A stretch of 64,000 bases of DNA from an uncultured Verrucomicrobiae bacterium (GTDB taxonomy: Bacteria; Verrucomicrobiota; Verrucomicrobiia; Limisphaerales; Palsa-1400). The notes beneath the pieces were generated by a model. It did not search any database. It saw nothing but the letters and a program-made list of their open reading frames with translations, and was not told the origin of the DNA. The stretch spans positions 5,408,001 through 5,472,000 of the forward strand of contig OY969763.1 in the NCBI GenBank assembly GCA_963702845.1, read 5' to 3'. The translations under genes and the position numbers were made by a program. Each line of letters begins with the position of its first letter. Positions within the stretch are counted from its first letter, which is position 1. This document shows, in pieces, positions 12,337-59,544 of this stretch.

Positions 12337-12378
12337 GGGTTACACCTAATAGCGGATGGCAGCTTTATATCGTACGGT
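12337..12378 (+). promoter_or_regulatory. Island box plus -10 element
   Basis: GGGTTACACCTAAT, 22 bp, TACGGT; upstream of ORF 12432. Confidence 0.65.
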
Positions 12379-12431
12379 GTGAATGAAAGGGGTTATTACG
12401 ATGAATATTAATTCACTAACCCGCAAATTGT

Positions 12432-12617
12432 ATGAAAACTGATGATTCAAAAACCTTGCGGCGAGTAAAGTGGGATGAAGTCGTCAGGCAGGGCGACTTC
12501 GTCATTGCCGGAAAAGGTTTCGAGCCTTGGGAAGGGCCGACTGGTTTCCGAGCCGATTCGTTTCTGAAACCCATCTACCGCACGCGGCAGTCCATTCCAA
12601 CGCGACTTGAAAAATGA
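12432..12617 (+). CDS. Conserved microprotein A (WEGP motif), paralog of 61721-61942
   Basis: TLRRVK.DEVVRQGDFV.AG.GFEPWEGP.GFRA.SFLKPI shared by both copies. Confidence 0.8.
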   Translation: MKTDDSKTLRRVKWDEVVRQGDFVIAGKGFEPWEGPTGFRADSFLKPIYRTRQSIPTRLEK

Positions 12618-12653
12618 AGGTTTAAAAAGATTAGCGAACGACTGCAAGTTGTT

Positions 12654-12830
12654 GTGAACTTTTTAAAGACAATACTCCTGACCTGCGTCCAATTAATCAA
12701 ACAGGTTTGGTTACTTCCCGAGACAATCCTGAACGCGTTCCGCATGCGAGAGCGGGCAATCGTATTGGATGAACGTGAAGCCGAACGGCTCGACCGGTTG
12801 CGCAATCCGTCAAAGTATCGAGGAAAATAA
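12654..12830 (+). CDS. Conserved microprotein B (58 aa), paralog of 61949-62125; absent from the ORF track
   Basis: GTG start; MNFLKTILLTCVQLIKQVWLLP...LDEREAERLDRLRNPSKYRGK. Confidence 0.8.
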   Translation: MNFLKTILLTCVQLIKQVWLLPETILNAFRMRERAIVLDEREAERLDRLRNPSKYRGK

Positions 12831-12869
12831 TCAGCCCAGAAAGCTGCGGCTCAATTGACACGCCACTAC

Positions 12870-12900
12870 ACGACCCAAGCTCAGCGCTCTTGTGTTAGGC
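12870..12900 (-). mobile_element. Collapsed (internally deleted) attC remnant
   Basis: Minus strand GCCTAAC (R'' containing the cassette stop) is followed after only 8 bp by GCTGAGCTTGGGTCGT, a typical attC right end. Confidence 0.6.
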
Positions 12901-13116
12901 GTTGCCGTCATCAGGACGTCCAGAAAAAAGTCGGCGGATCGTTTGTCCCTTCCACATCCACAGCCCCGAGAGGAGCACGACGGGAAAATAGAAATAACGA
13001 AAAAAAGGGAGATACTGCCGTGTCTCTTCTGGCGGCCCGTAAATGTAGCCAAGAAGCGTCAGGCCGAAGACGATGTGAATCCAGCGAAGAATCGAACGTT
13101 TGGTTGTGTCTTTCAT
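12895..13116 (-). CDS. Small two-TM membrane protein, integron gene cassette
   Basis: ILRWIHIVFG...YIYGP...LSGLWMWKG; bounded by GTTAGGC and the complementary GCCTAAC. Confidence 0.75.
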   Translation of the reverse strand: MKDTTKRSILRWIHIVFGLTLLGYIYGPPEETRQYLPFFRYFYFPVVLLSGLWMWKGQTIRRLFSGRPDDGNA

Positions 13117-13172
13117 TGTGGATGAATGTGGTCTCGATTTTCTGTGCGAGTGTGGCGGCGTCTAACATTGGC

Positions 13173-13263
13173 GCCTAACACATAGCTCAGCGACCCGGCC
13201 CACGGGACGCACCGATTGCAACCAGAGCGCGCGTGCCGGGTTCGCTGCAGCGCATGGTTGGCG
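13173..13263 (-). mobile_element. Integron attC site (~91 bp)
   Basis: Minus strand CGCCAAC-CATGCGCTGCAGCGAACCCGGC...GCCGGGTCGCTGAGCTATGT-GTTAGGC: R''/L'' and L'/R' boxes with an imperfect inverted repeat. Confidence 0.85.
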
Positions 13264-13286
13264 GCTGGTATCGCATCTCAAAATCC

Positions 13287-26465: not shown

Positions 26466-26526
26466 AGAATAGGTGAACGCCGCGAGCCGGATAATGGGGT
26501 GTAACCCTCTGGGGATTTCACCCCAT
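26466..26526 (-). promoter_or_regulatory. Paired island boxes plus -10 for the giant gene
   Basis: Minus strand GGGTTACACCCCAT, 22 bp, TATTCT; second inverted box GGGGATTTCACCCCAT at 26511-26526. Confidence 0.7.
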
Positions 26527-31278: not shown

Positions 31279-31320
31279 ACGTTATAACTTTGTGATACGG
31301 GTCTCAATGGGGTGTAACCC
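31279..31320 (-). promoter_or_regulatory. Island box plus -10
   Basis: Minus strand GGGTTACACCCCAT, 22 bp, TAACGT. Confidence 0.75.
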
Positions 31321-34266: not shown

Positions 34267-34834
34267 TTGGGCCTGCGCATCGAAACCGAGAACGGCTGTA
34301 GTTGAAAGTGGATGAGATGTGCGTTCACGGCCAGGCAGACGAATCCTGCGGCCTTTCTTTTTCCCTTGGCATCATAAACGGCGGTCACAAAGTCGCCGAA
34401 TGTTACCCGGTTTTTATGCTTCGATGCAATCACGTGTCAAGAGTAGGTCAGCGAGTGCCGGATACTCCATAAGGTGTTTCCCCCATCAGCGAAGATCGGG
34501 CCGCGCAGCCGGCGCTGGACCTTCCCGATGAACAAGGGTTTTTCCGCATTGGCGCAAGGAACCTCCCAGTTGTGAGGCGCCTCGCCGCGGTGAACTGTGA
34601 GTCATGAGAAAATTTCGTTCAGCTCCTGCAATGGCATCCGACGCGGCCAAAGTTTGCAGTGCCGAAACCCAACGAAAGTTAACTCAGTTGCAGATCCACT
34701 TCCGCAAACAAACGCGTTTCGAAGTCTTACGGATCATTGCTCTGAACGAACCGGTTAGTCTGTTCAAACACCGGATTGACTGAATCTGGCGGGTGGTGAT
34801 GGGATGAGTGCTTGACCTGTTAGACGCCCGAAGG

Positions 34835-35413
34835 TCAGGTTGCTTTTCCCTCGCCGCCCGTCACTTCTATTACGCCTGCGCCGATGGCAAACCGCACCAA
34901 CCCGGCAACATCATGGAGGTTGAGAGCGTCCATCAGTTTCATCCGATGATACTCGACAGTCTTGGGGCTCAAATCGAGAGCGGCGGCGATGGTTTTAGTG
35001 TTTTGGCCTTGAGCGATGAGACAAAGAATCTCGCGTTGACGCGCGGTCAACCGTTCCAACCCTTTGTGGCCATGGCAGCCTTTGCCCGGCGAAACTTTCG
35101 CAACGCTCGCCTTTTCCTCGTCACAATGTTCCATCGCCCGCTCTAACGCCGTTTCGGCCGCTTCAGTTCGAGTCTCGGCTTGTTCGGCGCGCGTTTCGGC
35201 CATCTCGGTCCGGGTTTGTGCTTGTTCAGTGCGAGTTTCGGCCTGTTCGGTCCTGGTCTCGGCCATTTCGGTGCGGGTTTCGGCGTGTTCCGTGCGAGCC
35301 TCGGCCTCGGCCGTGCGCAATTCCGCACGTTCCACCCGATCGGTATTTCCGGTGACGGGGATGTGTTGGGTCTTCTTCTGTTCGACTAAGGGAGTTTGCG
35401 CGGTTTTTGCCAT
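34835..35413 (-). CDS. LuxR C-terminal HTH regulator with an N-terminal heptad-repeat coiled coil
   Basis: LTARQREILCLIAQGQNTKTIAAALDLSPKTVEYHRMKLM; ~9 AETRTE(Q/M) heptads; no receiver domain. Confidence 0.88.
   Translation of the reverse strand: MAKTAQTPLVEQKKTQHIPVTGNTDRVERAELRTAEAEARTEHAETRTEMAETRTEQAETRTEQAQTRTEMAETRAEQAETRTEAAETALERAMEHCDEEKASVAKVSPGKGCHGHKGLERLTARQREILCLIAQGQNTKTIAAALDLSPKTVEYHRMKLMDALNLHDVAGLVRFAIGAGVIEVTGGEGKAT
35139..35326. repeat. 21-bp coding tandem repeat (AETRTEQ heptads)
   Basis: About 9 imperfect in-frame 21-bp units. Confidence 0.85.
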
Positions 35414-35423
35414 GACAACAGGC

Positions 35424-35469
35424 ACAATGAGCGAGGTAAACTGATTGGTCTATCAGGTGAACACCCTAC
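35424..35469 (-). promoter_or_regulatory. Degenerate island box upstream of the LuxR gene
   Basis: Minus strand AGGGTGTTCACCTGAT, 22 bp, CATTGT. Confidence 0.5.
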
Positions 35470-39980: not shown

Positions 39981-40027
39981 ACCATAGCTGTCTACGCGAA
40001 GGCGAACTAGTGGGGTGTTTTCCCCAT
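39981..40027 (-). promoter_or_regulatory. Island box plus -10
   Basis: Minus strand ATGGGGAAAACACCCCAC, 23 bp, TATGGT. Confidence 0.6.
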
Positions 40028-41638: not shown

Positions 41639-42325
41639 TTAAATAATCGTCACCTGCACGCTGCTCTCGATGATGCCCGCGCTGATGGCGTAGCGGGTCA
41701 GGCCGGCGGTGTCGTGGATGTCCAGCTTTGACATCAGGTGTTCGCGATGTTTCTCGACAGTCTTGATCCCAATGCCCAGTTCGTCGGCCGTTTGTTTGTT
41801 GGCTTTGCCTTCGGCGATGAGTTGCAGGACTTCCAGCTCGCGCGAGGTCAGGGTGGAGTGGCGCGATTTGCGGGAACCGGTCCGGGGCGCTTCCTGGACG
41901 TCGCGGCCATTCATGCGTTTGGAGATTTCGTTGGAGAAAAAGCTATTGCCCTGCATGACTTGGCGAATGGCGTCGACGACGAGTTGGGAGGAGGTTTGCT
42001 TGATCAAAAATCCGCGCGCGCCGGCGGCAGCGGCTTCGTCGACATAGGCGTCGTCGCTGTGGGCGGAGAGCATGATGACTCTGGCGGCGGGCGTGGCCAG
42101 GACGATCTGGCGGGCGGCTTCCAGGCCGTTGAGCAAAGGCATGGCGATGTCCATGAGGACGACGTCGGGCCGCACCTTGGCGAACATGGCCACGGCTTCA
42201 CGACCGGTTTTGGCTTCGCCGATGACGTGCATGTCCGCTTCGAGATCGAGCATGCGATGGAAACCTTCGCGGACGATCGTGTGATCTTCGGCGAGGAGGA
42301 TCGAGATTTTCTTAGTGGGCTTCAT
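41639..42325 (-). CDS. NarL/LuxR-family DNA-binding response regulator
   Basis: LAEDHTIVREG, VLMDIAMP, LSAH, FLIK; HTH LTSRELEVLQLIAEGKANKQTADELGIGIKTVEKHR. Confidence 0.95.
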   Translation of the reverse strand: MKPTKKISILLAEDHTIVREGFHRMLDLEADMHVIGEAKTGREAVAMFAKVRPDVVLMDIAMPLLNGLEAARQIVLATPAARVIMLSAHSDDAYVDEAAAAGARGFLIKQTSSQLVVDAIRQVMQGNSFFSNEISKRMNGRDVQEAPRTGSRKSRHSTLTSRELEVLQLIAEGKANKQTADELGIGIKTVEKHREHLMSKLDIHDTAGLTRYAISAGIIESSVQVTII

Positions 42326-42334
42326 GATAGATTT

Positions 42335-43891
42335 CTAGTGGGTAGGGCGCGTCGCTCCGCGCGCGCCGTTTTGTTCGGTCTCGGCAGCGGCGCGCACGGA
42401 GCGACGCACCCTACCTGGAGCCGGGGTGACTGGTGCAATGAAAGGAATGATGGCGACGACGGCAGTGCCTTTGCCGGGAGTGGCCTCGATGGAAAATATG
42501 CCGCCAATCATTTCGATGCGCTCGCGCATGCCGAGCAGGCCGAGGCGTTTGCTGGCTTTGAGTTTGGCACTGGCGGTGTTCTTGAAAGATCGGCCGTCGT
42601 CCATGATGCGCATGGAAATGTTTTCGCCGACTCTCTCGATGCGCACTTCGACGCGGGTGGCGTGCGCATGGCGTGCGACGTTGTTGAGCGCTTCCTGCGC
42701 CACGCGGAAAAGAGCGGCGCGGCGGTCTTGATCGAGCTCTTCGATTTTGGCAAAGGCGACGAGGTTGCAATGCACGCCGGATTGCGCCGTGAAAGTCTTC
42801 ATGAACACGTGCAGCGCGGGGACGAGGCCAAGATCATCGAGCACGGCGGGACGAAGTTGGCGCGCGAAATTGTGGACGACATCGACGGCTTTGAGGACGA
42901 GCGCCTGGGTTTCGGCGACGCGGATGTCGAAGCCTTTGCCGAAGTTGCCGGCTTCCTTGGCGAGTAGCGCAAGGCGGACGTTGATGCCGGTGAGCGTCTG
43001 GGCAATGACATCGTGCAATTCGCGGCTGATGCGCTTGCGCTCTTCTTCCTGCGCGTGCAGGACCTGGCGCGAGAGGTTGCGGAGCTGTGCCTGCATGAAC
43101 TCCGATTGTGCCAAAAGGTGAACCTGGTGTTGCTCGCTTTTCTTGAGGGATTTCTCGACGGCCTGGCGTTGGACGATCTCGCGGCGGAGATCGCGGTTGG
43201 ACAAAGCCAATTCCTCGACGCGCAGTTGCGCCTCCTGCGCGCGCTTGAGGGCGGTGATGTCGGAGACGACGACGCGGCACCACTTTTTTGGGCCTTTGGC
43301 GGACGCGGAGCTCGTGCCGTGGAAGTCAGCCCAGAACTTCGTGCCGTTTCCCCGGACGAGCGGCGCTTCGCAAACTTGTTTGCCTGCCCCGCTGAAGACG
43401 CGCTTAAGAAACGCGAGAAAGATGACGCGACTTTCCTGGACGATGAACGACGGCAAATAGCGGTTGAGCAAGTGCGCGCGGCCCAAACCGAGCAGCGACG
43501 CGCCGGTCAGGTTGACTTCCAAAATGCGACCTGCTTCGTCGAGCGAGAGATAACCGACTGGCGCGAAATCGTAGAGGTCGGTGTATTTCTCCAGCAAAGA
43601 TTCCATGCGGCCGCGGGCTTCCTGGAGTTCGGCGTTCTGCATTTCCAGTTCGACATGGTGGACCTGCAACTCGTGCAGGACGCGTTGGGTGTTCACTGCC
43701 ACTTCCGCTTTGGAATGCGCAGCTGCATCTTTGCGCACTTTGATCCGCGCTTCGGCTCGAAGGTAAAGGCCGGTCGTGCCCTCGCGTTCCGCGCGCGGGT
43801 CACCGAACCACGCCTGCGCCGATCGCCGGCGGCGACCGTGATCAGTCGGCTTCGCCGGACGCGTGGGCTTTTTATGCAAGGGACGTTTCAC
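42335..43891 (-). CDS. PAS sensor histidine kinase, HisKA_3 (NarX/UhpB) type
   Basis: LHELQVHHVELEMQN coil, PAS (LYDFAPVGY), EEERKRISRELHD, QEALNNVARHA, DDG, LGLLGMRER. Confidence 0.93.
   Translation of the reverse strand: MKRPLHKKPTRPAKPTDHGRRRRSAQAWFGDPRAEREGTTGLYLRAEARIKVRKDAAAHSKAEVAVNTQRVLHELQVHHVELEMQNAELQEARGRMESLLEKYTDLYDFAPVGYLSLDEAGRILEVNLTGASLLGLGRAHLLNRYLPSFIVQESRVIFLAFLKRVFSGAGKQVCEAPLVRGNGTKFWADFHGTSSASAKGPKKWCRVVVSDITALKRAQEAQLRVEELALSNRDLRREIVQRQAVEKSLKKSEQHQVHLLAQSEFMQAQLRNLSRQVLHAQEEERKRISRELHDVIAQTLTGINVRLALLAKEAGNFGKGFDIRVAETQALVLKAVDVVHNFARQLRPAVLDDLGLVPALHVFMKTFTAQSGVHCNLVAFAKIEELDQDRRAALFRVAQEALNNVARHAHATRVEVRIERVGENISMRIMDDGRSFKNTASAKLKASKRLGLLGMRERIEMIGGIFSIEATPGKGTAVVAIIPFIAPVTPAPGRVRRSVRAAAETEQNGARGATRPTH
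42341..42415. repeat. GTAG-type REP doublet inside the 3' end of the kinase CDS
   Basis: GGTAGGGCGCGTCGCTCCGCGCGCGCCG...CGGCGCGCACGGAGCGACGCACCCTACC. Confidence 0.8.
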
Positions 43892-43894
43892 TGT

Positions 43895-46723
43895 TTAAGT
43901 TCGTTGCGATTTGAGAGCGTGTTTAGTTTTTTTCGGCGCGACGGCGAGGGCGACGGCGCGTTTGCCATCGCCGCCGTTGCCGCCAACTTTTGCGCCGCGG
44001 TCTACAATGAGTTTTTCCAGGGCGGCCTGTTGCTCGCGTAATTTAATTTCCAAATGCTTGGCAATGGTGATGTCCGCGAAGGTCATGACCACGCCGTCAA
44101 CGCGATCGTCGTTCGTTCGATAAGGCATGATGCGCACGCTGAACCAACGTCCGTCGCGTGTGCTGACCGCCTTTTCGACAAAGCCAAGGGAGCGCAATAC
44201 TTGGCGGGCGTCGGACACGAGTTGCGGGTAGAGCAGATCGGAGGCGAGATCGGTGATGGGCCGGCCGACGTCGCTTGGAATGAGTTTGATAATTTTCGTA
44301 GCCTGCGTGGTGAACCGGCGCACATTGAGGGCCAGATCCAAAAAGAGCGTGGCGATGTCGGTGCTGTTGAGCAGGTTCTTCATGTCGCTGCTCGTCCGGG
44401 ACAACTCGTCGACCTTGACCTGCAATTCGGCGTTGACCGTCTGGAGCTCTTCATTCAACGACTGCATTTCCTCTTTGGAAGTCGTGAGTTCTTCGTTGGC
44501 CGACTGAAGCTCTTCGTTGGTGGATTGTTGCTCCTCGTTGGTCGAGCGCAATTCTTCCTGCGACGTCTGCATTTCTTCCCGTACCGACTGCGCTTCAAGG
44601 CGAGCGAGTTGATATTTTCGCCCCAACTCTTCCATGCGCAAAGTGCGACCCGGATTTTTGTCGGCCTTGGTGGAACGCGGGGATGCGATGGGTTCGGCCG
44701 GCGTGCTAACGTCAGTGAAAACAATCATCACCAGGCCGCGCATCGCTTCCGGTTCGAAAAGCCGTTGCACGGAAATATCCATGAATTGCTGCCCGACGCT
44801 GGTCATGATGTGCAGTCCGCGAACGATTACAGGAGTTTTTTGGTCGAGCGCTTTGTGGAAGGCGTTGCTGATTTCGTCGCGCAAGCCTTCGCGTGCCATG
44901 GCGAAAATGTTCCAATTTGCTTTGCCGGCGGCAGGCTCCAGATATTTGCCCGTCCGTCCGCTGATATAGAGAATGTTGCCCTCTGAATCTGCGAGAACCG
45001 TGGGCGCGGCAAAATGTTCCAAAACAAATTGGTCCGCCACCGACTGAAGACTCACATTCGTTTTTGGTTCAGCAGGCAACTTGACGTCGTCCGGCATGGG
45101 AGAAGCGAACGACGTCGGGAACTGAATCGATTCGGAACGCAACGTGGCTGGCGTCCGTTGAAAGATTCGCAATTTATTGTTCAACGGCGTGAACAGATCG
45201 GAGAAGGTTCCGATAGTTTCCGCACTGCCGAGGAATAAAACGCCGCCGGGACTCAAGCTATAATGAAACAACGGAATGAGTTTCTTCTGCATCTCCGGCG
45301 CGAGATAGATCAGCAAATTGCGACAGCTCAAAACATCCAGTTTGGTAAAGGGCGGGTCCTGAATGAGGCTTTGTTCCGCGAAGATGACCATCTCGCGAAT
45401 CTCGGGCTTCACCCTGTAGCCGCTCTCGTTTTTGGAGAAAAAGCGGCTCATTTGTTTTGGCGAAACGTCAGCGCAAATATTTTCCGGGTAAATGCCCAGG
45501 CGCGCCTTGGCAATCGCGTCCTTGTCCAGGTCGGTGGCAAAAACCTGAAGAGTAATCTTTTTCTTCGGCTTGATCTTGTCCATGACCTCTTTGAAGACCA
45601 TGGCGATGGAATACGCTTCTTCACCCGTGGAACATCCCGGCACCCAAACGCGCAAGACGTGGCCAGCGGGCCTCTTGGCAATCAGTGCGGGAAGAATCTT
45701 TTTGCGCAGTTCTTCCCATGCGGCAGGGTCACGGAAAAAGCTGGTGACGCCGATCAGGAGCTCTTTGAAGAGCAGGTCCAACTCCTGGGAATTCTCCTGC
45801 AGGTAGCGGACGTAATCGGCCATCTTATGGATCTGATGGATCCCCATGCGGCGCTCGATCCGGCGAAAGAATGTGTTTTTCTTGTAAAGAGAAAAGTCGT
45901 GCCCGGTGTGAGTGCGCAGCAGAATGATCGCCTTCTCCACCGTTCCCTGGGCCTTGGTTTCCAGCGCGCTCTCGAGATTGCGTCCGAGCGGAGTGCGCTT
46001 GAGATACGCAACGATCCTGTCCGGCAGATCGTCGACGGGTGCCACGATGTCGGCCAAACCAGCATCAATTGCGCTGCGCGGCATGCCATCGAATTTGGCC
46101 GTTAACGGGTCCTGCACCAAAACGACGCCGCCTTTTTCTTTGATGGCGCGCAAGCCGAGCGTGCCGTCGGAGCCCATGCCGGAGAGAATCACGCCGATGC
46201 TCTGTTCCTGCTGGTCCTGCGCGAGAGAGCGAAGAAAAAAATCAATGGGAAGGCGCAAGCCTCGCGGCGAAGCGGGTGGCAGCAGATGAAGAGTCCGGTG
46301 CAGAATGGACATGTCCTTGTTCGGCGGAATGACATAGACGCGATTCTGCTCGACCTTCATGCGGTCCCTCACCTGGACAACTTTCATCCCGGTCGCACGC
46401 TGCAATAGTTCAGGCATGATGCCTTTGCGCGTCGGATCCAAATGTTGAACAATGACGAAGGCCATGCCGGCATTTTTCGGCACGCGATATAGAAAATGTT
46501 CCAAGGCCTCCAAACCACCGGCGGATGTGCCAATGCCAACTATCGGAAATTTGAGGCGCGATGAGGGTCCGACGGAGAGCTTGCGGCCAGCTTTGGCGGT
46601 CATTTTCGGAGCAATTCGCGCTTTGTTCTTTTTTTTCACATTAACCTTTTCACCGCTCACAGGAGACACAAGAGACTGGCCCTGCTTGCCTTTGAAAGTG
46701 ATGTTCTGACTCCCGCTATTCAT
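43895..46723 (-). CDS. CheB methylesterase / CheR methyltransferase fusion with coiled coil and PAS
   Basis: CheB triad GTSAGG, VQHLDP, GMGSDG; CheR IGVTSFFRD, GCSTGEEAYS, CRNLLIY; EELQSANEEL coil; PAS. Confidence 0.95.
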   Translation of the reverse strand: MNSGSQNITFKGKQGQSLVSPVSGEKVNVKKKNKARIAPKMTAKAGRKLSVGPSSRLKFPIVGIGTSAGGLEALEHFLYRVPKNAGMAFVIVQHLDPTRKGIMPELLQRATGMKVVQVRDRMKVEQNRVYVIPPNKDMSILHRTLHLLPPASPRGLRLPIDFFLRSLAQDQQEQSIGVILSGMGSDGTLGLRAIKEKGGVVLVQDPLTAKFDGMPRSAIDAGLADIVAPVDDLPDRIVAYLKRTPLGRNLESALETKAQGTVEKAIILLRTHTGHDFSLYKKNTFFRRIERRMGIHQIHKMADYVRYLQENSQELDLLFKELLIGVTSFFRDPAAWEELRKKILPALIAKRPAGHVLRVWVPGCSTGEEAYSIAMVFKEVMDKIKPKKKITLQVFATDLDKDAIAKARLGIYPENICADVSPKQMSRFFSKNESGYRVKPEIREMVIFAEQSLIQDPPFTKLDVLSCRNLLIYLAPEMQKKLIPLFHYSLSPGGVLFLGSAETIGTFSDLFTPLNNKLRIFQRTPATLRSESIQFPTSFASPMPDDVKLPAEPKTNVSLQSVADQFVLEHFAAPTVLADSEGNILYISGRTGKYLEPAAGKANWNIFAMAREGLRDEISNAFHKALDQKTPVIVRGLHIMTSVGQQFMDISVQRLFEPEAMRGLVMIVFTDVSTPAEPIASPRSTKADKNPGRTLRMEELGRKYQLARLEAQSVREEMQTSQEELRSTNEEQQSTNEELQSANEELTTSKEEMQSLNEELQTVNAELQVKVDELSRTSSDMKNLLNSTDIATLFLDLALNVRRFTTQATKIIKLIPSDVGRPITDLASDLLYPQLVSDARQVLRSLGFVEKAVSTRDGRWFSVRIMPYRTNDDRVDGVVMTFADITIAKHLEIKLREQQAALEKLIVDRGAKVGGNGGDGKRAVALAVAPKKTKHALKSQRT

Positions 46724-47423
46724 ACCGGTGGCTGTCCAGTTCGCTCGCGACCTCTCGAACGGATTTAACCGACTGTGACACGAGCCGCTGGGTGCTGGCG
46801 ATTTGATTCTTAAGACTTTTGGTATTGCCCTTGGCGCCGCGCCTTAACGACAGCAGCCGGACATTGATGCTCAACAACAACTGCGCCACGTCGTCCTGCA
46901 GTTCGTGGCTCATTTTTTTGCGCTCCGCTTCCTGCGCGGTCAGACCCTTCCGGGCCAACTGCCGCAAACCTTCCTGGAGTTGAAGCGAATCCTTCAGCAG
47001 CTCCATATAATGCTCGCCGCTTTTTTTCAACGTCACTTCCATCGTCTTGTATCGAACGATTCCCTTTTGCAGCAAACGATTGCTGTCGGCCAGTTCGGTC
47101 GTGCGGCGGCTGAGCATTTCGTTAAGCTGGATCACGTCACCATTGCTTTGGCGTGCGGAACGGTGCGTTTGAAAAATCGGAATGAGCGCCTGGGTGAAGA
47201 AAACCTGAGCACGCTTGTTCAGGCGTTCTGCTGTGGGTGATAACTTCAACGTGGCCAGGGCTTTTTCGTGGATGTCGGCCAGTTGCAACGTCTCAAGCCC
47301 AAGTAAAACGGCGCGCTGTCCCATTTGGAGAGCGGGTCGCGATGTTTTGGCCGCACCTTTTCCGAGGTGTTTTCGCAGGGCCGCGACATATTGCTGCGAC
47401 AACTTGTTAAAGTTTTCTTTCAT
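46716..47423 (-). CDS. RsbU N-terminal-like domain plus degenerate HisKA_3, no ATPase domain
   Basis: QYVAALRKHL...ALQMGQRAVLLGLETLQLADIHEKAL; AQEAERKKMSHELQDDVAQ (ELHD replaced by ELQD); ends after the dimerisation helices. Confidence 0.75.
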   Translation of the reverse strand: MKENFNKLSQQYVAALRKHLGKGAAKTSRPALQMGQRAVLLGLETLQLADIHEKALATLKLSPTAERLNKRAQVFFTQALIPIFQTHRSARQSNGDVIQLNEMLSRRTTELADSNRLLQKGIVRYKTMEVTLKKSGEHYMELLKDSLQLQEGLRQLARKGLTAQEAERKKMSHELQDDVAQLLLSINVRLLSLRRGAKGNTKSLKNQIASTQRLVSQSVKSVREVASELDSHRYE

Positions 47424-47530
47424 TCTGATTGCCCAACCCATCGCGTCAGTTCGGAGGTTTAACACCCCCCACCTCCCTGGCGCGGGCATTAAATCCACAC
47501 TCAATATCGGGTCAAACCTTCGGGATGTAT

Positions 47531-47576
47531 ATGGGGTAAACACCCCATTGGCCGCCGCTGGATAAGTCGCTAACTT
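47531..47576 (+). promoter_or_regulatory. Island box with perfect palindromic arms plus -10 upstream of ohr
   Basis: ATGGGGT-AAAC-ACCCCAT, 22 bp, TAACTT; lies between the divergent signalling operon and ohr. Confidence 0.8.
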
Positions 47577-47637: not shown

Positions 47638-48051
47638 ATGAAAACTTTATTTACATCAGAAGCCATTTCCAAAGGCGCACGGTCCGGGACAGTTAAAACG
47701 CCGGACGGCTTGCTCGACGTTACGTTGGGAAATCCTTTGGAACCGGGCATTGAGAAACGCGGGCCCAATCCCGAACATCTGTTTGCCGCCGCTTACTCGG
47801 CCTGTTACCACGGGGCGCTGATCAATGCCGCGAAAAAACTGGGCACATCAATGGGTGCCTCAACCGTCCGCGCGCTGGTGAGTTTGATTGAGGATGATCA
47901 AGGGGGCTACCGTTTGTCGGTGGAACTTCATGCGCTGATGCCCGGAGTCGAACATAGCCAAGCCGGACGCATCATGGAAGAAGCGCACAAAACCTGCCCT
48001 TATTCCAAAGCGCTCCGCGGCGATACTGCGGTTGAGTTGTTGGTGGACTAG
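47638..48051 (+). CDS. ohr: Organic hydroperoxide resistance protein (Ohr/OsmC family)
   Basis: GARSG, PNPEHLFAAAYSACY, AHKTCPYSKA. Confidence 0.92.
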   Translation: MKTLFTSEAISKGARSGTVKTPDGLLDVTLGNPLEPGIEKRGPNPEHLFAAAYSACYHGALINAAKKLGTSMGASTVRALVSLIEDDQGGYRLSVELHALMPGVEHSQAGRIMEEAHKTCPYSKALRGDTAVELLVD

Positions 48052-48565: not shown

Positions 48566-48607
48566 AGGGTTACACCCCATAGCGAACGTTCCTGAATGCC
48601 GTAGCAT
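48566..48607 (+). promoter_or_regulatory. Island box plus -10
   Basis: AGGGTTACACCCCAT, 21 bp, TAGCAT. Confidence 0.7.
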
Positions 48608-49265: not shown

Positions 49266-49309
49266 AGGGTTTCACCTAATAGGTTTATGCCCTGGTGAAG
49301 ACGTAGCCT
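49266..49309 (+). promoter_or_regulatory. Island box plus -10
   Basis: AGGGTTTCACCTAAT, 23 bp, TAGCCT. Confidence 0.65.
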
Positions 49310-49355: not shown

Positions 49356-49799
49356 ATGAAACATAAAGTATTATTCCTCACCCTTCTTTCTGCCGGCGCA
49401 CTTGTCGTCGGATGCAATCAAGACTCCGCCTCGAAGCAACTCGACAAGGTCGAGGTCAAAACGGCAAACGCGGCCGATGACATGAAAGATTACACTTTCG
49501 CGCAGAAAGCAGAATTTACTGCAAAAATGCAGGCGCAGTTGGTCGACATCAACAAGGACCTCGACACGCTCCAGGCCAAGATTGACAAGTCCAGCGACGC
49601 CGTTAAGGCCGAGTGTAAACCCAAGCTTCAAGTCTTGCGCGATCAGCAGTCCGCACTGGGCAAACAACTGGACCAGGTCAAAGACGCGACTGAATCCACC
49701 TGGGACTCCGTCAAATCCGGCACCAGCAAAGCGTACGCTTCCTTGAAAGAAGGCTTCCAACAATCTCGCCAATGGGTAAGCGACAAAATCGCCCCATAA
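49356..49799 (+). CDS. Helical coiled-coil lipoprotein (stress-protein-like)
   Basis: Lipobox LVVGC; amphipathic helices, TESTWDSVKSG. Confidence 0.85.
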   Translation: MKHKVLFLTLLSAGALVVGCNQDSASKQLDKVEVKTANAADDMKDYTFAQKAEFTAKMQAQLVDINKDLDTLQAKIDKSSDAVKAECKPKLQVLRDQQSALGKQLDQVKDATESTWDSVKSGTSKAYASLKEGFQQSRQWVSDKIAP

Positions 49800-50537: not shown

Positions 50538-50580
50538 AGGGTTACACCCCATTGGGCATTCGAAGCCGATCAACTACTCT
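50538..50580 (+). promoter_or_regulatory. Island box plus -10
   Basis: AGGGTTACACCCCAT, 22 bp, TACTCT. Confidence 0.72.
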
Positions 50581-50630: not shown

Positions 50631-51357
50631 ATGAAAAGCAAAACCCTTTTCGTCCGATTCAGTGCAATGAGCGTGTGGCTCGTTAACATTGCTTTGTTCG
50701 CTCAATCCGAAATACCCGGAACAAAAAAGTACGCCACCACCGTCCAAATAGTCGAAACGTCGACTTTACCTCAGGCCATCGTCGTTCGGGTAAGCGGGAA
50801 ATGTGAATATTCAGAGGACGGCACAACTTTCCGGGCCGTAAAAGTAAATAATGTCTTTAAAGAAGGCGTCACTTTCCGGACTGCCGTTAATTCGCGACTA
50901 GATATGTTTTTCAGGAGGATCGGCACCAGCGTTCGGTTGCAAGAAGGCACTGAGGTGAAGCTCGAAAAATTGGAGCGTCACCTGAAAGAAGGAACGCCGC
51001 AAATGGAGACCTTGCTCGACCTGCGCGCGGGCAGAATTTTTACCGTGGTGCGTGCCCTGGTGCCCGGATGCACGTTCGAAATCAATAATGCCGCCGGACG
51101 CTCAGTGGTCGAAGGCGGAGGTGCCGAGGGTAGATACATTATCACCGCCGATGGCACGCATGTGACGGAGAAACACTCCACCACGCCACTTAAATTGATC
51201 CGCGAAACCGGCGTCACCGTCATTGCTCCCGGAATGCGATACGATGCGAAGGAAGGTAAAACATTTTCTCTTCGTCACTCCTGAATCAGTGAAGTCTCTC
51301 ATCGAATTTGATGAGTTGCACTCGCTAGTGGAACAAGAGGACGGGAAGAAAGAATAG
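50631..51357 (+). CDS. Secreted FecR-like beta-domain protein; probable frameshift near 51265
   Basis: Signal peptide; RTAVNSRLDMF...VRLQEGTEVKLE...LDLRAGRIF; an alternative frame continues to TAG 51357. Confidence 0.65.
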
Positions 51358-56731: not shown

Positions 56732-56749
56732 ATTGAACTGAAAACAACT

Positions 56750-57517
56750 ATGAATTTAAAAGACAAAGTCGCCATCGTCACCGGCGGCAACAGCGGCATC
56801 GGCAAGGCCATCGTTTTGGAATTGGCGCGGGAAGGTGCAAATATCGTCATTGATTACGTCGCGCATCCCGAAGCGACTGAAGAATTGGAAAAACAAATTC
56901 GTGCGTTAGGCGATAACGTCATCGGCGTAAAAGCGGACGTCAGTCAAACCGCCGAACTGCAAAACCTATTCGCAACGGCCTTAAAAGAATTTGGCCGCGT
57001 GGACATCATGGTCAACAACGCCGGCATTGAAACGCGCACTTCCATTCTCGACACGACCGAAGCCCAATACGAACGCGTTCTGGCCATCAATCTCAAGAGT
57101 GCATTTTTCGGCACACAACTCGCCGCGCAACAAATGATCAAACAAGGCGGAGGCGGACGCATCATCAATATCACTTCCGTGCATGAAGACTGGCCGATGC
57201 CGGGCAATACGGCTTATTGTCTTTCCAAAGGCGGAATGAGGATGTTGACGCGCACGGCGGGCGTCGAGCTTGCCCCGCACAATATTTTGGTCGTTGGCGT
57301 CGGTCCTGGCGCGGTCGCAACGCCGATCAATTCGGGCACGATGAATGACCCGGCGCTTTTGAAAAAACTCGACAGCACAATTCCGCTCGGACGAATGGCC
57401 AAGCCGGAGGAAATTGCCAGCCTCGTCGCATTTCTCGCGAGCGACGGCGCCAGTTACATTACCGCGACAACTATTTTTGCCGATGGCGGCATTATGCAGA
57501 GCGGTCCTGGACTGTAA
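56750..57517 (+). CDS. SDR oxidoreductase, glucose 1-dehydrogenase-like
   Basis: TGGNSGIG, NNAG, SVHE, YCLSKGG, PGAVATPIN. Confidence 0.92.
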   Translation: MNLKDKVAIVTGGNSGIGKAIVLELAREGANIVIDYVAHPEATEELEKQIRALGDNVIGVKADVSQTAELQNLFATALKEFGRVDIMVNNAGIETRTSILDTTEAQYERVLAINLKSAFFGTQLAAQQMIKQGGGGRIINITSVHEDWPMPGNTAYCLSKGGMRMLTRTAGVELAPHNILVVGVGPGAVATPINSGTMNDPALLKKLDSTIPLGRMAKPEEIASLVAFLASDGASYITATTIFADGGIMQSGPGL

Positions 57518-57544
57518 AATCCACCTGCATCCGCTCGTCACAAC

Positions 57545-57589
57545 TGGGGTGAACACCCCATGCCGCCGAACGCGCTGGAAAGTTATAGT
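57545..57589 (+). promoter_or_regulatory. Island box plus -10
   Basis: TGGGGTGAACACCCCAT, 22 bp, TATAGT. Confidence 0.75.
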
Positions 57590-57598
57590 TGGAGAGTT

Positions 57599-58405
57599 AT
57601 GTCTCCAAATCCTTCCCTCAACGTAGTCGGCAGGTTGGGCGCGGGAGTTTGGGGGCTGTGGGATCAATTGCGGCATATTGCGGCAGTTGTGGGAACCGTC
57701 CTTTTAGTTTCCGTTCAGCCGCGAAATTGGGTGGCATCGGTTCGGAAAGCCTTTTCCATGCAAGTGCTGTCGATCGGCATCGAACCGCTTTGGTTTGTTG
57801 GCGTGGCAGCAGTGTTCGTCGGCATTTCAGTTGTCGTCCAACTTTCATTTTGGAGCGGCATCGCCGGTCAGTCGCAAATGGTCGGGCCGCTGTTGGTAAC
57901 AGTCATCGCCCGCGAACTTGGTCCGGTGCTAATCAACCTCATCGTCATTGTCCGCAGCGGCAGCTCTATGACGACCGAACTAGGCGTCCTGAAAATCAAC
58001 GGGCAAGTGCGCGCGCTGGAGAAGCAACGATGCGATCCATTCCTGCACCTGGTTTTGCCGCGTGTGCTGGGTATGGCGGTCTCCACGTTTTGTCTGACGA
58101 TTGTCTTTATCATCATTGCGTTCGCGAGCGGTTATTTTTTCGCGGCATGGATGGGCAAAGGCAGCCGTGATTTATTTCTGTTCGTCGATAGCGTGGCCAG
58201 CGCGCTTCAGTTCAAGGACGTCTTGAATATTCTCGCCAAAAGTATTTTACCCGCACTGTTTGCGAGCGCCTGCTGTTGTATCGGCGGGCTGGGCGTGGGC
58301 GGATCGGATACGGAAATTCCGCAAGCGACGCAACGGGCGCTGACCTGGTCGATGGCTGGGCTGTTCGTCATCTCCGCGGCAGTATCGGTTCTCACTTATT
58401 TCTGA
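57599..58405 (+). CDS. MlaE-family ABC permease
   Basis: ARELGPVL..LIVIVRSGSSMTTELG.LKINGQVRAL...P...LVLPR. Confidence 0.9.
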   Translation: MSPNPSLNVVGRLGAGVWGLWDQLRHIAAVVGTVLLVSVQPRNWVASVRKAFSMQVLSIGIEPLWFVGVAAVFVGISVVVQLSFWSGIAGQSQMVGPLLVTVIARELGPVLINLIVIVRSGSSMTTELGVLKINGQVRALEKQRCDPFLHLVLPRVLGMAVSTFCLTIVFIIIAFASGYFFAAWMGKGSRDLFLFVDSVASALQFKDVLNILAKSILPALFASACCCIGGLGVGGSDTEIPQATQRALTWSMAGLFVISAAVSVLTYF

Positions 58406-58407
58406 TT

Positions 58408-59448
58408 ATGAACGAAGCGCCTGACATCTTAGATCCGTTGCGTCAAGACGAACCAAAAAAGGAACGGTTCAAGTTTCGCCGCGTCAACGAAATCACCGGC
58501 GTGTTCGTTCTAGTCATCGTTGCGGTGCTGGTCGCCGCCATTGTTTGGGCGGACCGAAGCCAGCGCTGGTTCAAGAGTAATGTTACCTTGCGCATCGTTC
58601 TTCCCGAAAACGGCGCGGCCGGTATTCGGCAAGGTTCGGAAGTTTACTTTCTCGGCACGCTCGTCGGCTCCGTGTCTGATGTCATCGTCGCGCCCACAGG
58701 GCGGATGGAGGCCGAGACGCATATCCGGCACGACTTTTTTCGTTTCGTTCGCGAGGATTCGTCAGCGGTGGTCAAAAAGAAATTTGGCGTTGCTGGCGAT
58801 TCATTTTTTGAAATCACGCGGGGCGTGGGCAAGCCACTGCCTGAAGTTGATGCGTCCATCGTTTGCAACGAGCAGTTTCAAAATGCACTTGAATCCGCCA
58901 TCGAAGAAATCCGACGCGAAACGTTGCTCGTTTTGAAAAAAACCAGCACTGGCCTGGATACGTGGACCAAATTGGGAGCGGACCTGGTCGAAACGCGCAA
59001 GCACCTGGACCAACTCACCGTCCGTATGGAAAATATGGCCGCTGGAATCGAAGCGGGTAAAGGCACGGTGGGCAAATTGATTACCGACACCGCAGTTGTC
59101 GACGACGCTCAGGCTCTTCTCGCCCGCGCCAACGCCACCATGACCGAATTCCAAGGCATGCTGACAAATCTGAATGTAGCCGTGAAAAACGTAGAGAAAG
59201 GCACAGTGCGTTTGCCAGAAATTTCTGATGCTGTTGCAATCGATGCGAAAAGCCTCGCTGCACTTATTCTGCAGTCACACACCTCTATGCGCGAGTTCCA
59301 GCGTTTGACTGAAGCCGCGCAACACCATTGGCTCTTGCGCAAGTATGTCAACCAAACCAACCCGCCGTCCGATCGTCCGCTCGAAATTGGGGCGTCAGAA
59401 AAGAAACTGTTGAAAACGCTTCGTTCACCTAATCAGTCTCCGAACTAA
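58408..59448 (+). CDS. MlaD/MCE-family protein
   Basis: TM anchor; AAGIRQGSEVYFLGTLVGSV; GKGTVGKLI helical region. Confidence 0.9.
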   Translation: MNEAPDILDPLRQDEPKKERFKFRRVNEITGVFVLVIVAVLVAAIVWADRSQRWFKSNVTLRIVLPENGAAGIRQGSEVYFLGTLVGSVSDVIVAPTGRMEAETHIRHDFFRFVREDSSAVVKKKFGVAGDSFFEITRGVGKPLPEVDASIVCNEQFQNALESAIEEIRRETLLVLKKTSTGLDTWTKLGADLVETRKHLDQLTVRMENMAAGIEAGKGTVGKLITDTAVVDDAQALLARANATMTEFQGMLTNLNVAVKNVEKGTVRLPEISDAVAIDAKSLAALILQSHTSMREFQRLTEAAQHHWLLRKYVNQTNPPSDRPLEIGASEKKLLKTLRSPNQSPN

Positions 59449-59501
59449 GTTCGATTTGAAGCGGCGAGGAGGTTATAGCTGCCGGCTATCAAATAGGCGG
59501 T

Positions 59502-59544
59502 CGGGTTAGACCCCATAGCAGTGGGACAGTCAGCGACGTAACGT
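59502..59544 (+). promoter_or_regulatory. Island box plus -10
   Basis: CGGGTTAGACCCCAT, 22 bp, TAACGT. Confidence 0.75.

What the first reader, a model, noticed from the sequence alone, without database searches (positions are those of the whole stretch)
12337..59544. Undescribed island-wide regulon: GGGT-N3/4-ACCCCAT box ~22 bp upstream of TAnnnT
Seen: one quasi-palindrome (best copy ATGGGGT-AAAC-ACCCCAT, 47531) recurs in intergenic DNA at 12337(+), 26494(-), 31307(-), 40011(-), 47531(+), 48566(+), 49266(+), 50538(+), 57545(+) and 59502(+). Each copy is followed at 21-23 bp (seven at exactly 22) by a TAnnnT hexamer: TACGGT, TATTCT, TAACGT, TATGGT, TAACTT, TAGCAT, TAGCCT, TACTCT, TATAGT, TAACGT. 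Each points at the next gene. Weaker copies lie at 26511, 27111, 34472, 35452, 40102 and 62280. Established: a dyad centred near -43 and abutting the -35 is class II activator geometry, as for the lux box. Targets include ohr, BON/OsmY, lmo0937, DUF2934, an SDR-adjacent Mla pair and a DUF3494 protein; several belong to families controlled by SigB, RpoS or EcfG elsewhere. Inference: a general stress response run by a NarL/LuxR activator, probably 41639-42325 and/or 34835-35413.
Basis: partly seen in the sequence, partly recalled or inferred. Interest (0 to 1): 0.88.

Follow-up and report, generated by a model that had tools for sequence, protein, structure and literature searches.

The report
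Clustered stress regulon with conserved activator box
A 14-18 bp inverted-repeat box sits at a fixed distance upstream of the -10 element of at least 12 promoters packed into one 64-kb stress-gene cluster of a soil Verrucomicrobium, and it is likely the binding site of a two-component response regulator encoded in the same cluster, which would give this little-studied phylum a sigma-independent general stress switch.

Summary
Observation confirmed and extended. The box (right-anchored GGGTTACACCCCAT) occurs at all ten stated places. TAnnnT follows at 22 nt in 7 sites and at 21 or 23 nt in 3. The 11 best matrix hits in the 6.03-Mb genome all lie within 64 kb.

It is a true dyad with arms ACCC(C/T)A(T/C) and a 3- or 4-nt spacer, centred near -43. 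The promoters lack the TTGAC-type -35 seen at this genome's tRNA promoters.

In 78 of 230 box promoters from the window and relatives, a start codon lies 5-9 nt after the -10. These are likely leaderless mRNAs, which independently places the start site.

The box travels with orthologues of the REC+GerE regulator at 41639-42325. There are 369 boxes against 3 control hits in 1.19 Mb around 80 orthologues, and other classes of the phylum show the same link. No sigma gene is linked. The coiled-coil GerE protein at 34835-35425 fits the box distribution poorly.

Targets are stress-type genes: BON, OsmC, ice-binding-like, PRC-barrel, YflT, Dps, Mla and DUF5670, plus many signalling genes.

Most likely this is a DosR/OsdR-like, self-activating, locally clustered regulon. 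Binding, start sites and inducing signals are untested. My searches found no paper on it.

The parts
12337..12378 (+). Box (12337-12350, 20.5 bits) plus -10 TACGGT (12373-12378); next gene is the 61-aa ORF 12432-12617
   Evidence: homologues of the 61-aa ORF lie in box loci L031 and L050
26466..26507 (-). Box (26494-26507, 23.8 bits) plus -10 TATTCT (26466-26471); GTG at 26458 lies 7 nt after the -10 and opens the giant roughly 2570-aa protein gene (18746-26458)
26513..26526 (+). Divergent second box (18.6 bits) back to back with the previous one; no TAnnnT at 21-23 nt
31279..31320 (-). Box (31307-31320, 23.8 bits) plus -10 TAACGT; next gene is the 74-aa ORF 31039-31263
34440..34482 (-). Weaker box (34469-34482, 14.4 bits) plus TACTCT at 23 nt; points at the radical-SAM gene (33274-34266) and MlaA (31336-33273)
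39981..40023 (-). Box (40010-40023, 15.6 bits) plus -10 TATGGT at 23 nt. It heads the run PAS protein (38580-39938), GAF-PAS histidine kinase (36598-38559) and receiver protein (35500-36336); the GerE-solo gene (34835-35425) follows
47531..47548 (.). Best palindrome ATGGGGT-AAAC-ACCCCAT, shared by two divergent promoters. On the + strand the -10 is TAACTT (47571-47576), leading to OsmC/Ohr (47638-48051). On the - strand the -10-like hexamer is GATATT (47503-47508), leading to the kinase/regulator operon
   Evidence: a box heads this operon in 35 of 63 relatives' loci
41639..42325 (-). Predicted box-binding activator: response regulator with REC plus GerE (LuxR/FixJ-type HTH), 228 aa
   Evidence: Pfam Response_reg 4e-26 and GerE 5.2e-18; linkage to boxes; recognition helix KTVEKHREHLM nearly invariant among the full-length orthologues listed
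42335..47498 (-). Upstream genes of the same operon: HisKA_3 protein without ATPase domain (46716 to about 47498), CheB-CheR-PAS fusion (43895-46723), PAS-HisKA_3-HATPase kinase (42335-43891)
34835..35425 (-). Coiled-coil (AETRTEQ-type repeats) plus GerE protein. A degenerate box lies near 35452
48567..48607 (+). Box (23.8 bits) plus -10 TAGCAT; ATG 48615 lies 7 nt after the -10 (likely leaderless), 181-aa protein of no known family
49267..49309 (+). Box (17.6 bits) plus -10 TAGCCT; next gene 49356-49799, a 147-aa helical protein with a weak, below-cut-off apolipoprotein-type match
   Evidence: 8 box-preceded homologues
50539..50580 (+). Box (23.8 bits) plus -10 TACTCT; next gene 50631-51281 has a weak DUF7354 match below Pfam's cut-off, followed by two DUF6600 genes, an MGH1-like glycosidase and an SDR
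57548..57589 (+). Box (18.5 bits) plus -10 TATAGT; ATG 57599 lies 9 nt after the -10; MlaE (to 58405) and MlaD-like (58276-59448)
59503..59544 (+). Box (21.0 bits) plus -10 TAACGT; ice-binding-like protein (59582-60394), BON protein (60455-61240), DUF5670 (61310-61462)

Best explanation
The box is a conserved inverted repeat placed about 43 bp upstream of the inferred start of at least 12 promoters in one gene cluster. It is likely the binding site of the cluster's own two-component response regulator (41639-42325), which would act as a dimer to recruit RNA polymerase carrying the housekeeping sigma factor.

Shown:
- The dyad has arms ACCC(C/T)A(T/C) with a 3- or 4-nt spacer.
- The promoter-proximal arm ends 21-23 nt before a TAnnnT hexamer.
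- The hexamer where a -35 would lie (TAGCGn-like) is poor compared with the TTGAC-type -35 of this genome's tRNA promoters.
- A start codon very often lies 5-9 nt after the -10.
- The box and the regulator gene are inherited together across orders and classes of Verrucomicrobiota.

Inferred:
- The phosphorylated regulator binds the dyad and contacts polymerase as DosR does at a site centred at -43.5.
- It activates its own kinase/regulator operon from the palindrome at 47531-47548 (positive feedback).
- It switches on a set of envelope, osmotic, oxidative and dormancy-type proteins, plus further kinases, single-domain receivers and a GerE protein that would tune the response.
- Many of the mRNAs would be leaderless.

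The inducing signal is unknown.
For: Site reality and clustering.

Dyad shown without selecting on the left arm. Among 241 distinct sites chosen only by ACCCCAT plus TAnnnT at 21-23 nt, G is present at -14 in 100% and at -13 in 96%. There are two registers: 143 of type GGTAGGGTWAC-ACCCCAT and 71 perfect ATGGGGTRAAC-ACCCCAT palindromes.

Spacing: among 193 loosely chosen sites, TAnnnT offsets peak at 22 (58), 23 (26) and 21 (12). No other offset exceeds 6.

Start-site proxy: among 230 box-plus--10 sites with a downstream ORF, the start codon lies 5-9 nt after the -10 in 78 (6-7 nt in 58). The codon is ATG in 62 of those 78.

Housekeeping promoter type: tRNA genes here carry TTGAC(A/G)-N16-17-TAnnnT.

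Linkage to the regulator:
- In 1.19 Mb around 80 orthologues (65-71% identity) there are 369 boxes at 15 bits or more, against 3 with the reversed matrix. 74 of the 80 loci have a box.
- All 17 genomes (of 41) with 3 or more strict boxes have an orthologue at 59% identity or more. 18 of the 24 genomes with 2 or fewer have none.
- 8 of 20 loci chosen by boxes alone hold a full-length orthologue.
- In other classes of the phylum, 4 of 7 box-rich genomes show the orthologue inside the 12-20 kb stretches fetched around their boxes.

Autoregulation: a same-strand box lies 1.0-3.5 kb upstream of the regulator, at the operon head, in 35 of 63 loci. None lies between about -1.5 kb and -1 kb, and only two are closer in.

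No sigma: none of the 43 sigma-70-family genes lies within 50 kb of the cluster. Only 3 of 108 loci hold a sigma-like hit.

Precedent: the DosR box at hspX is centred at -43.5 with a suboptimal -35 and a consensus -10, and DosR contacts sigma region 4 and alpha (PMC13486717, abstract and passage).

Stress-type targets.
Against: - No binding, start-site or expression data.
- Two genomes have an orthologue with the same recognition helix but no consensus box: G012 (66% identity) and G031 (61%). G012 carries diverged boxes (CACCTGAT, CACCGGAT) at the syntenic places. So helix and box do not co-vary in a simple way.
- The 3- or 4-nt spacing and the much stronger proximal arm are unusual for a rigid symmetric dimer.
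- A second GerE protein with a similar recognition helix (KTVEYHR against KTVEKHR; 53% identity over 62 aa) is encoded in the cluster.
- Loci were chosen by box or by regulator, and related genomes are not independent.
- Only 35 of 63 loci show the operon-head box at 15 bits. The window's own scores 11.6 bits on that strand.
Confidence: 0.7

Rival explanations
1. The box is read by another GerE-type protein of the cluster. The candidate is the coiled-coil plus GerE protein (34835-35425) or a paralogue, alone or together with the response regulator.
For: Its HTH is 53% identical to the regulator's and shares KTVE-HR in the recognition helix. Its homologues are themselves preceded by boxes and look leaderless.
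Against: Matches at E of 1e-44 or better were found in only 5 of the 40 other genomes: G011, G005, G013, G017 and G002 (the last cut by a contig end). None was found with this query in box-rich G003, G006, G007, G008 and G023.
Confidence: 0.12
2. The box is a repressor operator that overlaps the -35 region. The genes would be switched on by release of the protein, not by recruitment of polymerase.
For: A site covering -51 to -35 could block polymerase. GerE-family proteins can repress.
Against: The -35 position is poor (TAGCGn-like), whereas tRNA promoters in the same genome carry TTGAC-type -35 hexamers. The fixed phasing to the -10 and the DosR precedent at -43.5 fit activation.
Confidence: 0.08
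3. The box is the upstream (-35-type) element of an alternative sigma factor, such as an ECF or SigB-like general stress sigma.
For: The proximal arm is far better conserved than the distal one. The AAC/TAC core resembles ECF-type -35 elements (this resemblance is recalled, not tested). The stress gene content matches sigma-run regulons elsewhere.
Against: The inverted-repeat symmetry includes 71 perfect palindromes, some shared by divergent promoters. The conserved core ends 21-23 nt before the -10, too far for one sigma to span. No sigma gene lies in the cluster or is linked to it in relatives. The -10 is of the housekeeping TAnnnT type.
Confidence: 0.04
4. The copies are remnants of a short mobile repeat with no regulatory role.
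For: There are many copies within a limited region.
Against: Only 14-18 nt are conserved and the flanks differ. Every copy is oriented toward a gene, with fixed spacing to a -10 and often to a start codon. The box is conserved upstream of the same gene families in different genera and classes.
Confidence: 0.01

Closest known systems
DosR/DevR dormancy regulon of Mycobacterium tuberculosis (NarL-family response regulator)
   Same: Both have a REC plus GerE regulator with a HisKA_3-type kinase partner. Both use a G-run/C-run inverted repeat centred near -43.5 at a promoter with a suboptimal -35 and a good -10 (PMC13486717). Both control a stress or dormancy set of some tens of genes, part of it near the regulator gene.
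   Different: It is not an orthologue. The closest solved relatives are VraR (1e-39) and DesR; DevR scores only 9.6e-27. The recognition helix differs (KTVEKHREHL here, KTVKNYVSRL in DevR) and so does the box. No USP, nitroreductase or nitrate-reductase genes were seen among the window ORFs scanned. The phylum is different. Many targets look leaderless.
OsdR/OsdK of Streptomyces coelicolor
   Same: A palindromic box was found by comparing regions upstream of the regulator's orthologues. The regulator gene itself carries a site. Eight sites near osdR cover 20 of the 22 genes between SCO0198 and SCO0219, so the core regulon is physically clustered (PMC5069765, section 7).
   Different: The OsdR consensus AGGGCCGATCGGCCCT is not this box. 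Gene content and phylum differ. Here almost the whole predicted regulon of the genome, not only its core, lies in one 64-kb stretch.
General stress regulons run by alternative sigma factors (SigB, RpoS, EcfG/PhyR)
   Same: The target families overlap: BON/OsmY-like, OsmC/Ohr, YflT, Dps/ferritin, PRC-barrel, DUF883/ElaB-like. That these families belong to those regulons is recalled knowledge. As in the PhyR system (also recalled), several kinases and single-domain receivers are attached.
   Different: No sigma factor is linked. Control appears to run through a DNA-binding response regulator at housekeeping-type promoters.
lux box / LuxR-type quorum-sensing activators
   Different: The regulator has a receiver domain, not an autoinducer-binding domain. 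No synthase gene was seen.

Membership tests
NarL/FixJ-type (LuxR-superfamily) response regulators, for protein 41639-42325 | N-terminal receiver domain with the conserved acidic pocket | tested here: met
   Pfam Response_reg 4e-26 over residues 9-120. It aligns end to end with VraR, DesR, DevR and NarL, including the LMD motif at the phospho-acceptor position.
NarL/FixJ-type (LuxR-superfamily) response regulators, for protein 41639-42325 | C-terminal GerE-type helix-turn-helix | tested here: met
   Pfam GerE 5.2e-18 over residues 158-213.
NarL/FixJ-type (LuxR-superfamily) response regulators, for protein 41639-42325 | Cognate HisKA_3 histidine kinase encoded beside it | tested here: met
   A PAS-HisKA_3-HATPase kinase lies directly upstream. 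All 38 kinases of 360-440 aa found directly upstream of orthologues carry HisKA_3 and HATPase_c.
NarL/FixJ-type (LuxR-superfamily) response regulators, for protein 41639-42325 | Sequence-specific binding to the box | not testable with these tools
   Only linkage evidence is available.
Activator-dependent promoter with the site overlapping -35 (class II geometry) | Operator centred about 41-44 bp upstream of the start site | tested here: inconclusive
   The box ends 21-23 nt before the -10. Taking the start as the codon 6-7 nt after the -10, the centre falls at about -42 to -44.5.
Activator-dependent promoter with the site overlapping -35 (class II geometry) | Weak -35 with a good -10 of the housekeeping type | tested here: met
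   The -35 position reads T+AGCGn-like. The -10 is TAnnnT. tRNA promoters of the same genome carry TTGAC(A/G)-N16-17-TAnnnT.
DosR/DevR-OsdR regulon | Regulator orthologous to DosR, with the same recognition helix and the same box | tested here: not met
   DevR is only the fifth solved hit (9.6e-27). The recognition helix differs. The box differs from the OsdR/DevR consensus printed in PMC5069765.
DosR/DevR-OsdR regulon | Autoregulated regulator with targets clustered around it | tested here: met
   The palindrome sits at the operon head. 12 of the genome's 24 best sites lie in 64 kb.
Alternative-sigma promoter | A cognate sigma gene that is linked, and two asymmetric elements 15-19 nt apart | tested here: not met
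   No sigma gene in the cluster and sigma-like hits in only 3 of 108 loci. The element is a dyad whose core ends 21-23 nt before the -10.
LuxR-type quorum-sensing regulator and lux box | N-terminal autoinducer-binding domain | tested here: not met
   Pfam finds a receiver domain in 41639-42325, and only coiled-coil plus GerE in 34835-35425.

The most novel reading that the evidence does not exclude
This is the general stress response of Limisphaerales-type Verrucomicrobiota. It is a self-contained cassette in which one NarL-type response regulator replaces the alternative sigma factor used by other phyla. The cassette carries its own kinases, a dozen or more box promoters and largely leaderless mRNAs in one block. 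It has moved as a unit between classes of the phylum. Box clusters with the regulator occur in the window's order and in several other classes, but in none of 66 sampled genomes of other orders of its own class.
Probability: 0.4. Interest if true: 0.72.

Novelty: new member of a known kind. Interest (0 to 1): 0.6.

Why it matters
No general stress regulator or promoter logic for free-living Verrucomicrobiota turned up in my literature searches. These are abundant soil and freshwater bacteria.

This finding supplies:
- a precise cis-element;
- a named candidate regulator;
- predicted start sites;
- a target list covering envelope, osmotic, oxidative and dormancy-type proteins.

All of these can be tested directly by gel shift, DAP-seq and 5'-end mapping. 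A candidate organism is a cultured relative such as Pedosphaera parvula; a genome bin bearing that name carries 8 boxes around the regulator gene.

It also extends the DosR/OsdR design to a distant phylum. That design is a response regulator whose core regulon sits beside its own gene. The finding further links it to widespread leaderless translation. Finally, it gives annotators a simple marker for stress genes among the many proteins of unknown family in these genomes.

Tried and rejected
- Stressosome lead: 25 of 38 kinases upstream of regulator orthologues carry an RsbU_N-like N-terminal domain. The own genome has only one sub-threshold RsbU_N hit, in the cluster's 275-aa HisKA_3 protein. 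Its STAS proteins are not in RsbR/S/T-type clusters. No support for a stressosome input.
- Alternative sigma: rejected.
- Mobile repeat: rejected.
- Quorum-sensing LuxR: rejected.
- Strict pattern counts under-report boxes. For example, G018 has 2 strict matches but 6 matrix hits at 15 bits or more in one 11.7-kb locus.
- A looser pattern in G012, G031, G009, G010 and G015 gave chance-level counts.
- Single-linkage clustering of downstream proteins merged unrelated families. The 49-member cluster is a mix of receiver-only proteins, coiled-coil proteins, PAS kinases and DUF7354 proteins. I therefore give no exact count for those families.
- Earlier notes of this scan held nothing on this motif.

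Full report
**1. Observation**

The pattern GGGT-N3/4-ACCCC occurs 9 times in the window. These are 7 places, two of them palindromes counted on both strands. Dinucleotide-preserving shuffles give 0.62 expected, and none of 100 shuffles reaches 9.

Anchored on the last base of ...CCCAT, a TAnnnT hexamer begins exactly 22 nt later in 7 copies. It begins at 21 nt in one copy (48567) and at 23 nt in two (40010, 49267).

TAnnnT occurs at 0.0057 per position in this genome. Ten of ten within a three-position window is therefore not chance. Each copy points at the next gene on its strand.

**2. Confinement to one cluster**

The window is G000:C1:5408001-5472000 of a single-contig 6,027,559-bp genome with 54% G+C.

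A position matrix built from the ten 14-mers was scanned over both strands of the genome. The 11 best hits, and 12 of the 24 hits at 15 bits or more, lie between 5403872 and 5467503. That stretch is 1% of the genome.

Two of those sites were not used to build the matrix. One is a divergent second box at window 26513(+). The other is at genome 5403872(-), 4 kb left of the window. It precedes a DUF883_C/holin-X-type membrane protein gene and an AI-2E transporter gene.

TAnnnT at 21-23 nt follows 11 of the 12 cluster sites but only 1 of the 12 sites elsewhere. "Island-wide" is thus literally true. The ranking of the ten training sites themselves is circular.

**3. Anatomy**

To avoid bias, I collected every distinct ACCCCAT in the window and the fetched loci of relatives. 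There were 577, and I kept the 241 followed by TAnnnT at 21-23 nt. The left side was not used for selection.

That left side shows G at -14 in 100% and at -13 in 96% of sites. It falls into two registers:
- 143 sites of type GGTAGGGTWAC-ACCCCAT, with a 3-nt spacer. The -10 is at 22 nt in 108 of them.
- 71 perfect palindromes of type ATGGGGTRAAC-ACCCCAT, with a 4-nt spacer. The -10 is at 23 nt in 37 and at 22 nt in 28.

The remaining 27 sites fit neither register.

So the element is a real dyad with arms ACCC(C/T)A(T/C). The promoter-proximal arm is nearly invariant and the distal arm is looser.

Directly after the box, A-G-C(-G) is moderately conserved. The hexamer where a -35 would lie, with a 17-nt spacer, is the last T of the box plus these bases. 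It resembles TTGACA poorly. tRNA genes of the same genome carry TTGAC(A/G)-N16-17-TAnnnT close to their 5' ends. The box promoters therefore have a housekeeping-type -10 but no proper -35.

**4. An independent pointer to the start site**

There are 230 box-plus--10 sites with a downstream ORF (window and relatives). In 78 of them the first start codon lies 5-9 nt after the -10, and in 58 it lies at 6-7 nt. The codon is ATG in 62 of the 78, and the encoded N-termini look normal (MK..., MN...).

My ORF rule would have spread artefacts evenly over the distances, so the sharp peak is real. It is what leaderless mRNAs look like. It places +1 about 7 nt after the hexamer, the box end at about -35, and the dyad centre at about -42 to -44.5.

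Window examples:
- 48615: ATG, 7 nt after the -10.
- 57599: ATG, 9 nt after the -10, MlaE.
- 26458: GTG, 7 nt after the -10, the giant protein.

**5. Conservation**

The strict pattern GGKWWWCACCCCAT is found in 27 of 41 genomes (G000 and its 40 relatives), including 19 of 24 of the same family. The same pattern read backwards gives 0-1 per genome. Matches are clustered on contigs.

Among 193 loosely chosen sites from relatives' loci and the window, the TAnnnT offset peaks at 22 (58), 23 (26) and 21 (12). No other offset exceeds 6.

Record titles place the relatives in Verrucomicrobiota: Limisphaerales, "subdivision 3" and Pedosphaera. A few titles look mislabelled.

In a sample of 200 further genomes of the phylum:
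- none of the 66 "same class" rows has more than 2 matches;
- 7 of the 134 "same phylum" rows have 3-11 matches, again clustered.

Fragments fetched from those 7 genomes show the same box, the same 22-nt spacing, and BON and ice-binding-like targets.

**6. Which protein reads the box?**

The cluster encodes two GerE-type proteins:
- a REC+GerE response regulator at 41639-42325;
- a coiled-coil+GerE protein at 34835-35425.

*Evidence for the response regulator*

- Of 20 loci chosen only because they held box clusters, 8 contain a full-length orthologue at 65-68% identity, and one more contains a copy cut by the contig end.
- All 17 genomes with 3 or more strict boxes have an orthologue at 59% identity or more. 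18 of the 24 genomes with 2 or fewer have none above 55%.
- Around 80 orthologues from other species (1.19 Mb) there are 369 boxes at 15 bits or more, against 3 with the reversed matrix. 74 of the 80 loci have at least one box. The six without are contigs of 2.5-9.9 kb.
- 4 of the 7 distant box-rich genomes show an orthologue (57-67% identity) inside the fragments fetched.
- Boxes have preferred places. In 35 of 63 loci one lies on the regulator's strand 1.0-3.5 kb upstream, at the head of the operon [HisKA_3 protein without ATPase]-[kinase]-[regulator], and almost none lies inside the operon. In 24 of 79 loci another lies within 300 nt after the stop codon.
- In the window, the best palindrome (47531-47548) sits between ohr and this operon. 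GATATT lies at 22 nt on the operon side, with GTG and ATG codons 4 and 13 nt further on.

*Evidence on the coiled-coil GerE protein*

Matches at E of 1e-44 or better were found in only 5 of the 40 other genomes. None was found with this query in several box-rich genomes. Its homologues are themselves box-controlled. It is better seen as a target or second-tier regulator. However, its recognition helix resembles the regulator's, so shared binding is not excluded.

*No sigma factor fits*

None of the 43 sigma-70-family genes lies within 50 kb of the cluster. Only 3 of 108 relatives' loci contain a sigma-like hit.

**7. Results against the reading**

- G012 and G031 have orthologues (66% and 61% identity) with the same recognition helix. 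Neither has a matrix hit at 12 bits or more within 10 kb or a consensus box genome-wide.
- In G012 the syntenic positions carry diverged boxes ending CACCTGAT and CACCGGAT, with a -10-like hexamer and a nearby ATG. The system is retained there but the box has drifted without an obvious change in the helix.
- The variable half-site spacing and the asymmetric conservation are not explained.
- All linkage counts come from loci chosen by box or by regulator, and from related genomes.

**8. Gene content**

*Window targets*

- OsmC/Ohr.
- A PurA-like small protein.
- Proteins of no known family.
- An apolipoprotein-like helical protein (weak, below-cut-off match).
- A protein with a weak DUF7354 match, and two DUF6600 proteins.
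- An MGH1-like glycosidase and an SDR.
- MlaE and MlaD.
- An ice-binding-like protein, a BON protein and DUF5670.
- MlaA with a radical-SAM protein.
- A giant surface-type protein.
- A PAS/GAF kinase-receiver set.

*Families downstream of boxes in relatives*

- BON (a cluster of 20).
- Receiver-only proteins of about 165 aa.
- Coiled-coil kinases and coiled-coil GerE proteins.
- Ice-binding-like, PRC-barrel, YflT, OsmC, MlaA, DUF5670, DUF2934 and ferritin/Dps proteins.
- A glycogen-binding module, a GT4 glycosyltransferase, a P-type ATPase and others.

That many of these belong to SigB, RpoS or EcfG regulons elsewhere is recalled knowledge. On that basis, "general stress/dormancy regulon" is a reasonable inference but not a result.

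**9. Comparison with known systems**

By sequence, the regulator is a NarL/FixJ-type response regulator. The closest solved relatives are VraR (1e-39) and DesR, then DevR (9.6e-27) and NarL.

The nearest functional precedents are two:
- DosR/DevR. At hspX its box is centred at -43.5, beside a suboptimal -35 and a consensus -10. The dimer contacts sigma region 4 and the alpha subunit (PMC13486717; I read the abstract, outline and two passages).
- OsdR of Streptomyces. Its 16-nt palindrome was found upstream of the regulator's orthologues. Eight sites near osdR cover 20 of the 22 neighbouring genes (PMC5069765; abstract, outline and section 7).

The present system works like these but is not a member. 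The recognition helix differs, the box differs, and the hallmark USP, nitroreductase and nitrate-reductase genes were not seen.

I found no paper on this motif or on a general stress regulator of Verrucomicrobia with three searches:
- "Verrucomicrobia" + "general stress response" + "response regulator": 12 papers, none relevant by title or abstract.
- The 9-mer of the proximal arm, matched anywhere: 193 papers, of which the 15 listed are unrelated.
- "Verrucomicrobia" + "leaderless" + "transcription start sites": 0 papers.

Subscription-journal papers are not covered by these searches.

**10. Verdict**

The mechanism is of a known kind: a two-component activator at a -35-overlapping dyad, with a self-activating and locally clustered regulon. 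The case itself is new. It involves a different phylum, box and gene set, and a striking share of likely leaderless transcripts.

Binding, start sites, the inducing signal and the direction of control (activation rather than repression) remain to be shown.

Noticed in passing
window 31-11287 and genome 5403872 (L137 7860-7873): The stress cluster appears interrupted by a defence-type block: T5orf172, an MmeI-type restriction-modification enzyme, DEAD/DUF3418 helicases, and an AAA ATPase just left of the window. A further strong box lies beyond it at genome 5403872(-), upstream of a DUF883_C/holin-X-type gene. A tRNA-Tyr gene lies at 5401519.
   Followed up: partly
window 7166-9235 and 9806-11287 (-): A DUF3418 protein (HrpA C-terminal type, 689 aa) and a DEAD/Helicase_C protein (493 aa) lie on the same strand, about 570 bp apart. 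This may be a split or disrupted HrpA-like helicase.
   Followed up: no
window 41393-41626 (-): A 77-aa ORF matches only the C-terminal end of phosphoketolase (XFP_C) directly after the regulator gene. Homologues of the same length (63-68% identity) lie in box clusters of two distant genomes (L149, L152). It therefore looks like a conserved small gene rather than a remnant.
   Followed up: partly
window 42335-47543 (-): In most relatives the operon is [about 260-aa HisKA_3 protein without ATPase domain]-[about 390-aa kinase]-[regulator]. In this genome a 942-aa CheB-CheR-PAS fusion and a PAS kinase take the place of the usual kinase. A homologue of the fusion (71% identity) was seen only in G035 among the 20 loci searched.
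   Followed up: partly
loci L051-L130, kinases upstream of the regulator: 25 of 38 cognate kinases have an N-terminal RsbU_N-like domain (best E 8.6e-07) and 12 have PAS instead. No RsbR/S/T-type stressosome genes were found in the own genome.
   Followed up: yes
relatives, e.g. L035 16821(-), L040 6430(+), L039 16793(-): Promoters of the receiver-only, kinase and GerE signalling genes share extra conservation in the spacer between box and -10 (AGCGCC.GCAAGG.TT..C.G.CT). It often forms a short inverted repeat whose arms vary in a matched way. The meaning is unknown; it could be a second operator, a terminator of the preceding gene, or paralogy.
   Followed up: no
window 26494-26526: Two boxes lie back to back on opposite strands, 5 nt apart. 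One drives the giant protein gene. The other has no TAnnnT at 21-23 nt and faces a 75-aa ORF (26582-26809) and, 660 nt away, a GT4 glycosyltransferase.
   Followed up: no
L131 (G012) 8040-8085 and 10685-10745: A relative keeps the regulator with the same recognition helix, but its syntenic boxes end in CACCTGAT or CACCGGAT instead of CACCCCAT. The window's weak copy near 35452 has the same CACCTGAT variant.
   Followed up: partly
genome-wide, upstream of tRNA genes: Housekeeping-type promoters of this Verrucomicrobium read TTGAC(A/G) or TTGAA(C/T), then N16-17, then TAnnnT, ending 9-16 nt before the mature tRNA 5' ends.
   Followed up: partly
phylum sample: The distribution is patchy. Box clusters occur in the window's order and in 7 of 134 sampled genomes of other classes, but in none of 66 sampled genomes of other orders of the same class. 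This may point to transfer of the whole cassette.
   Followed up: partly
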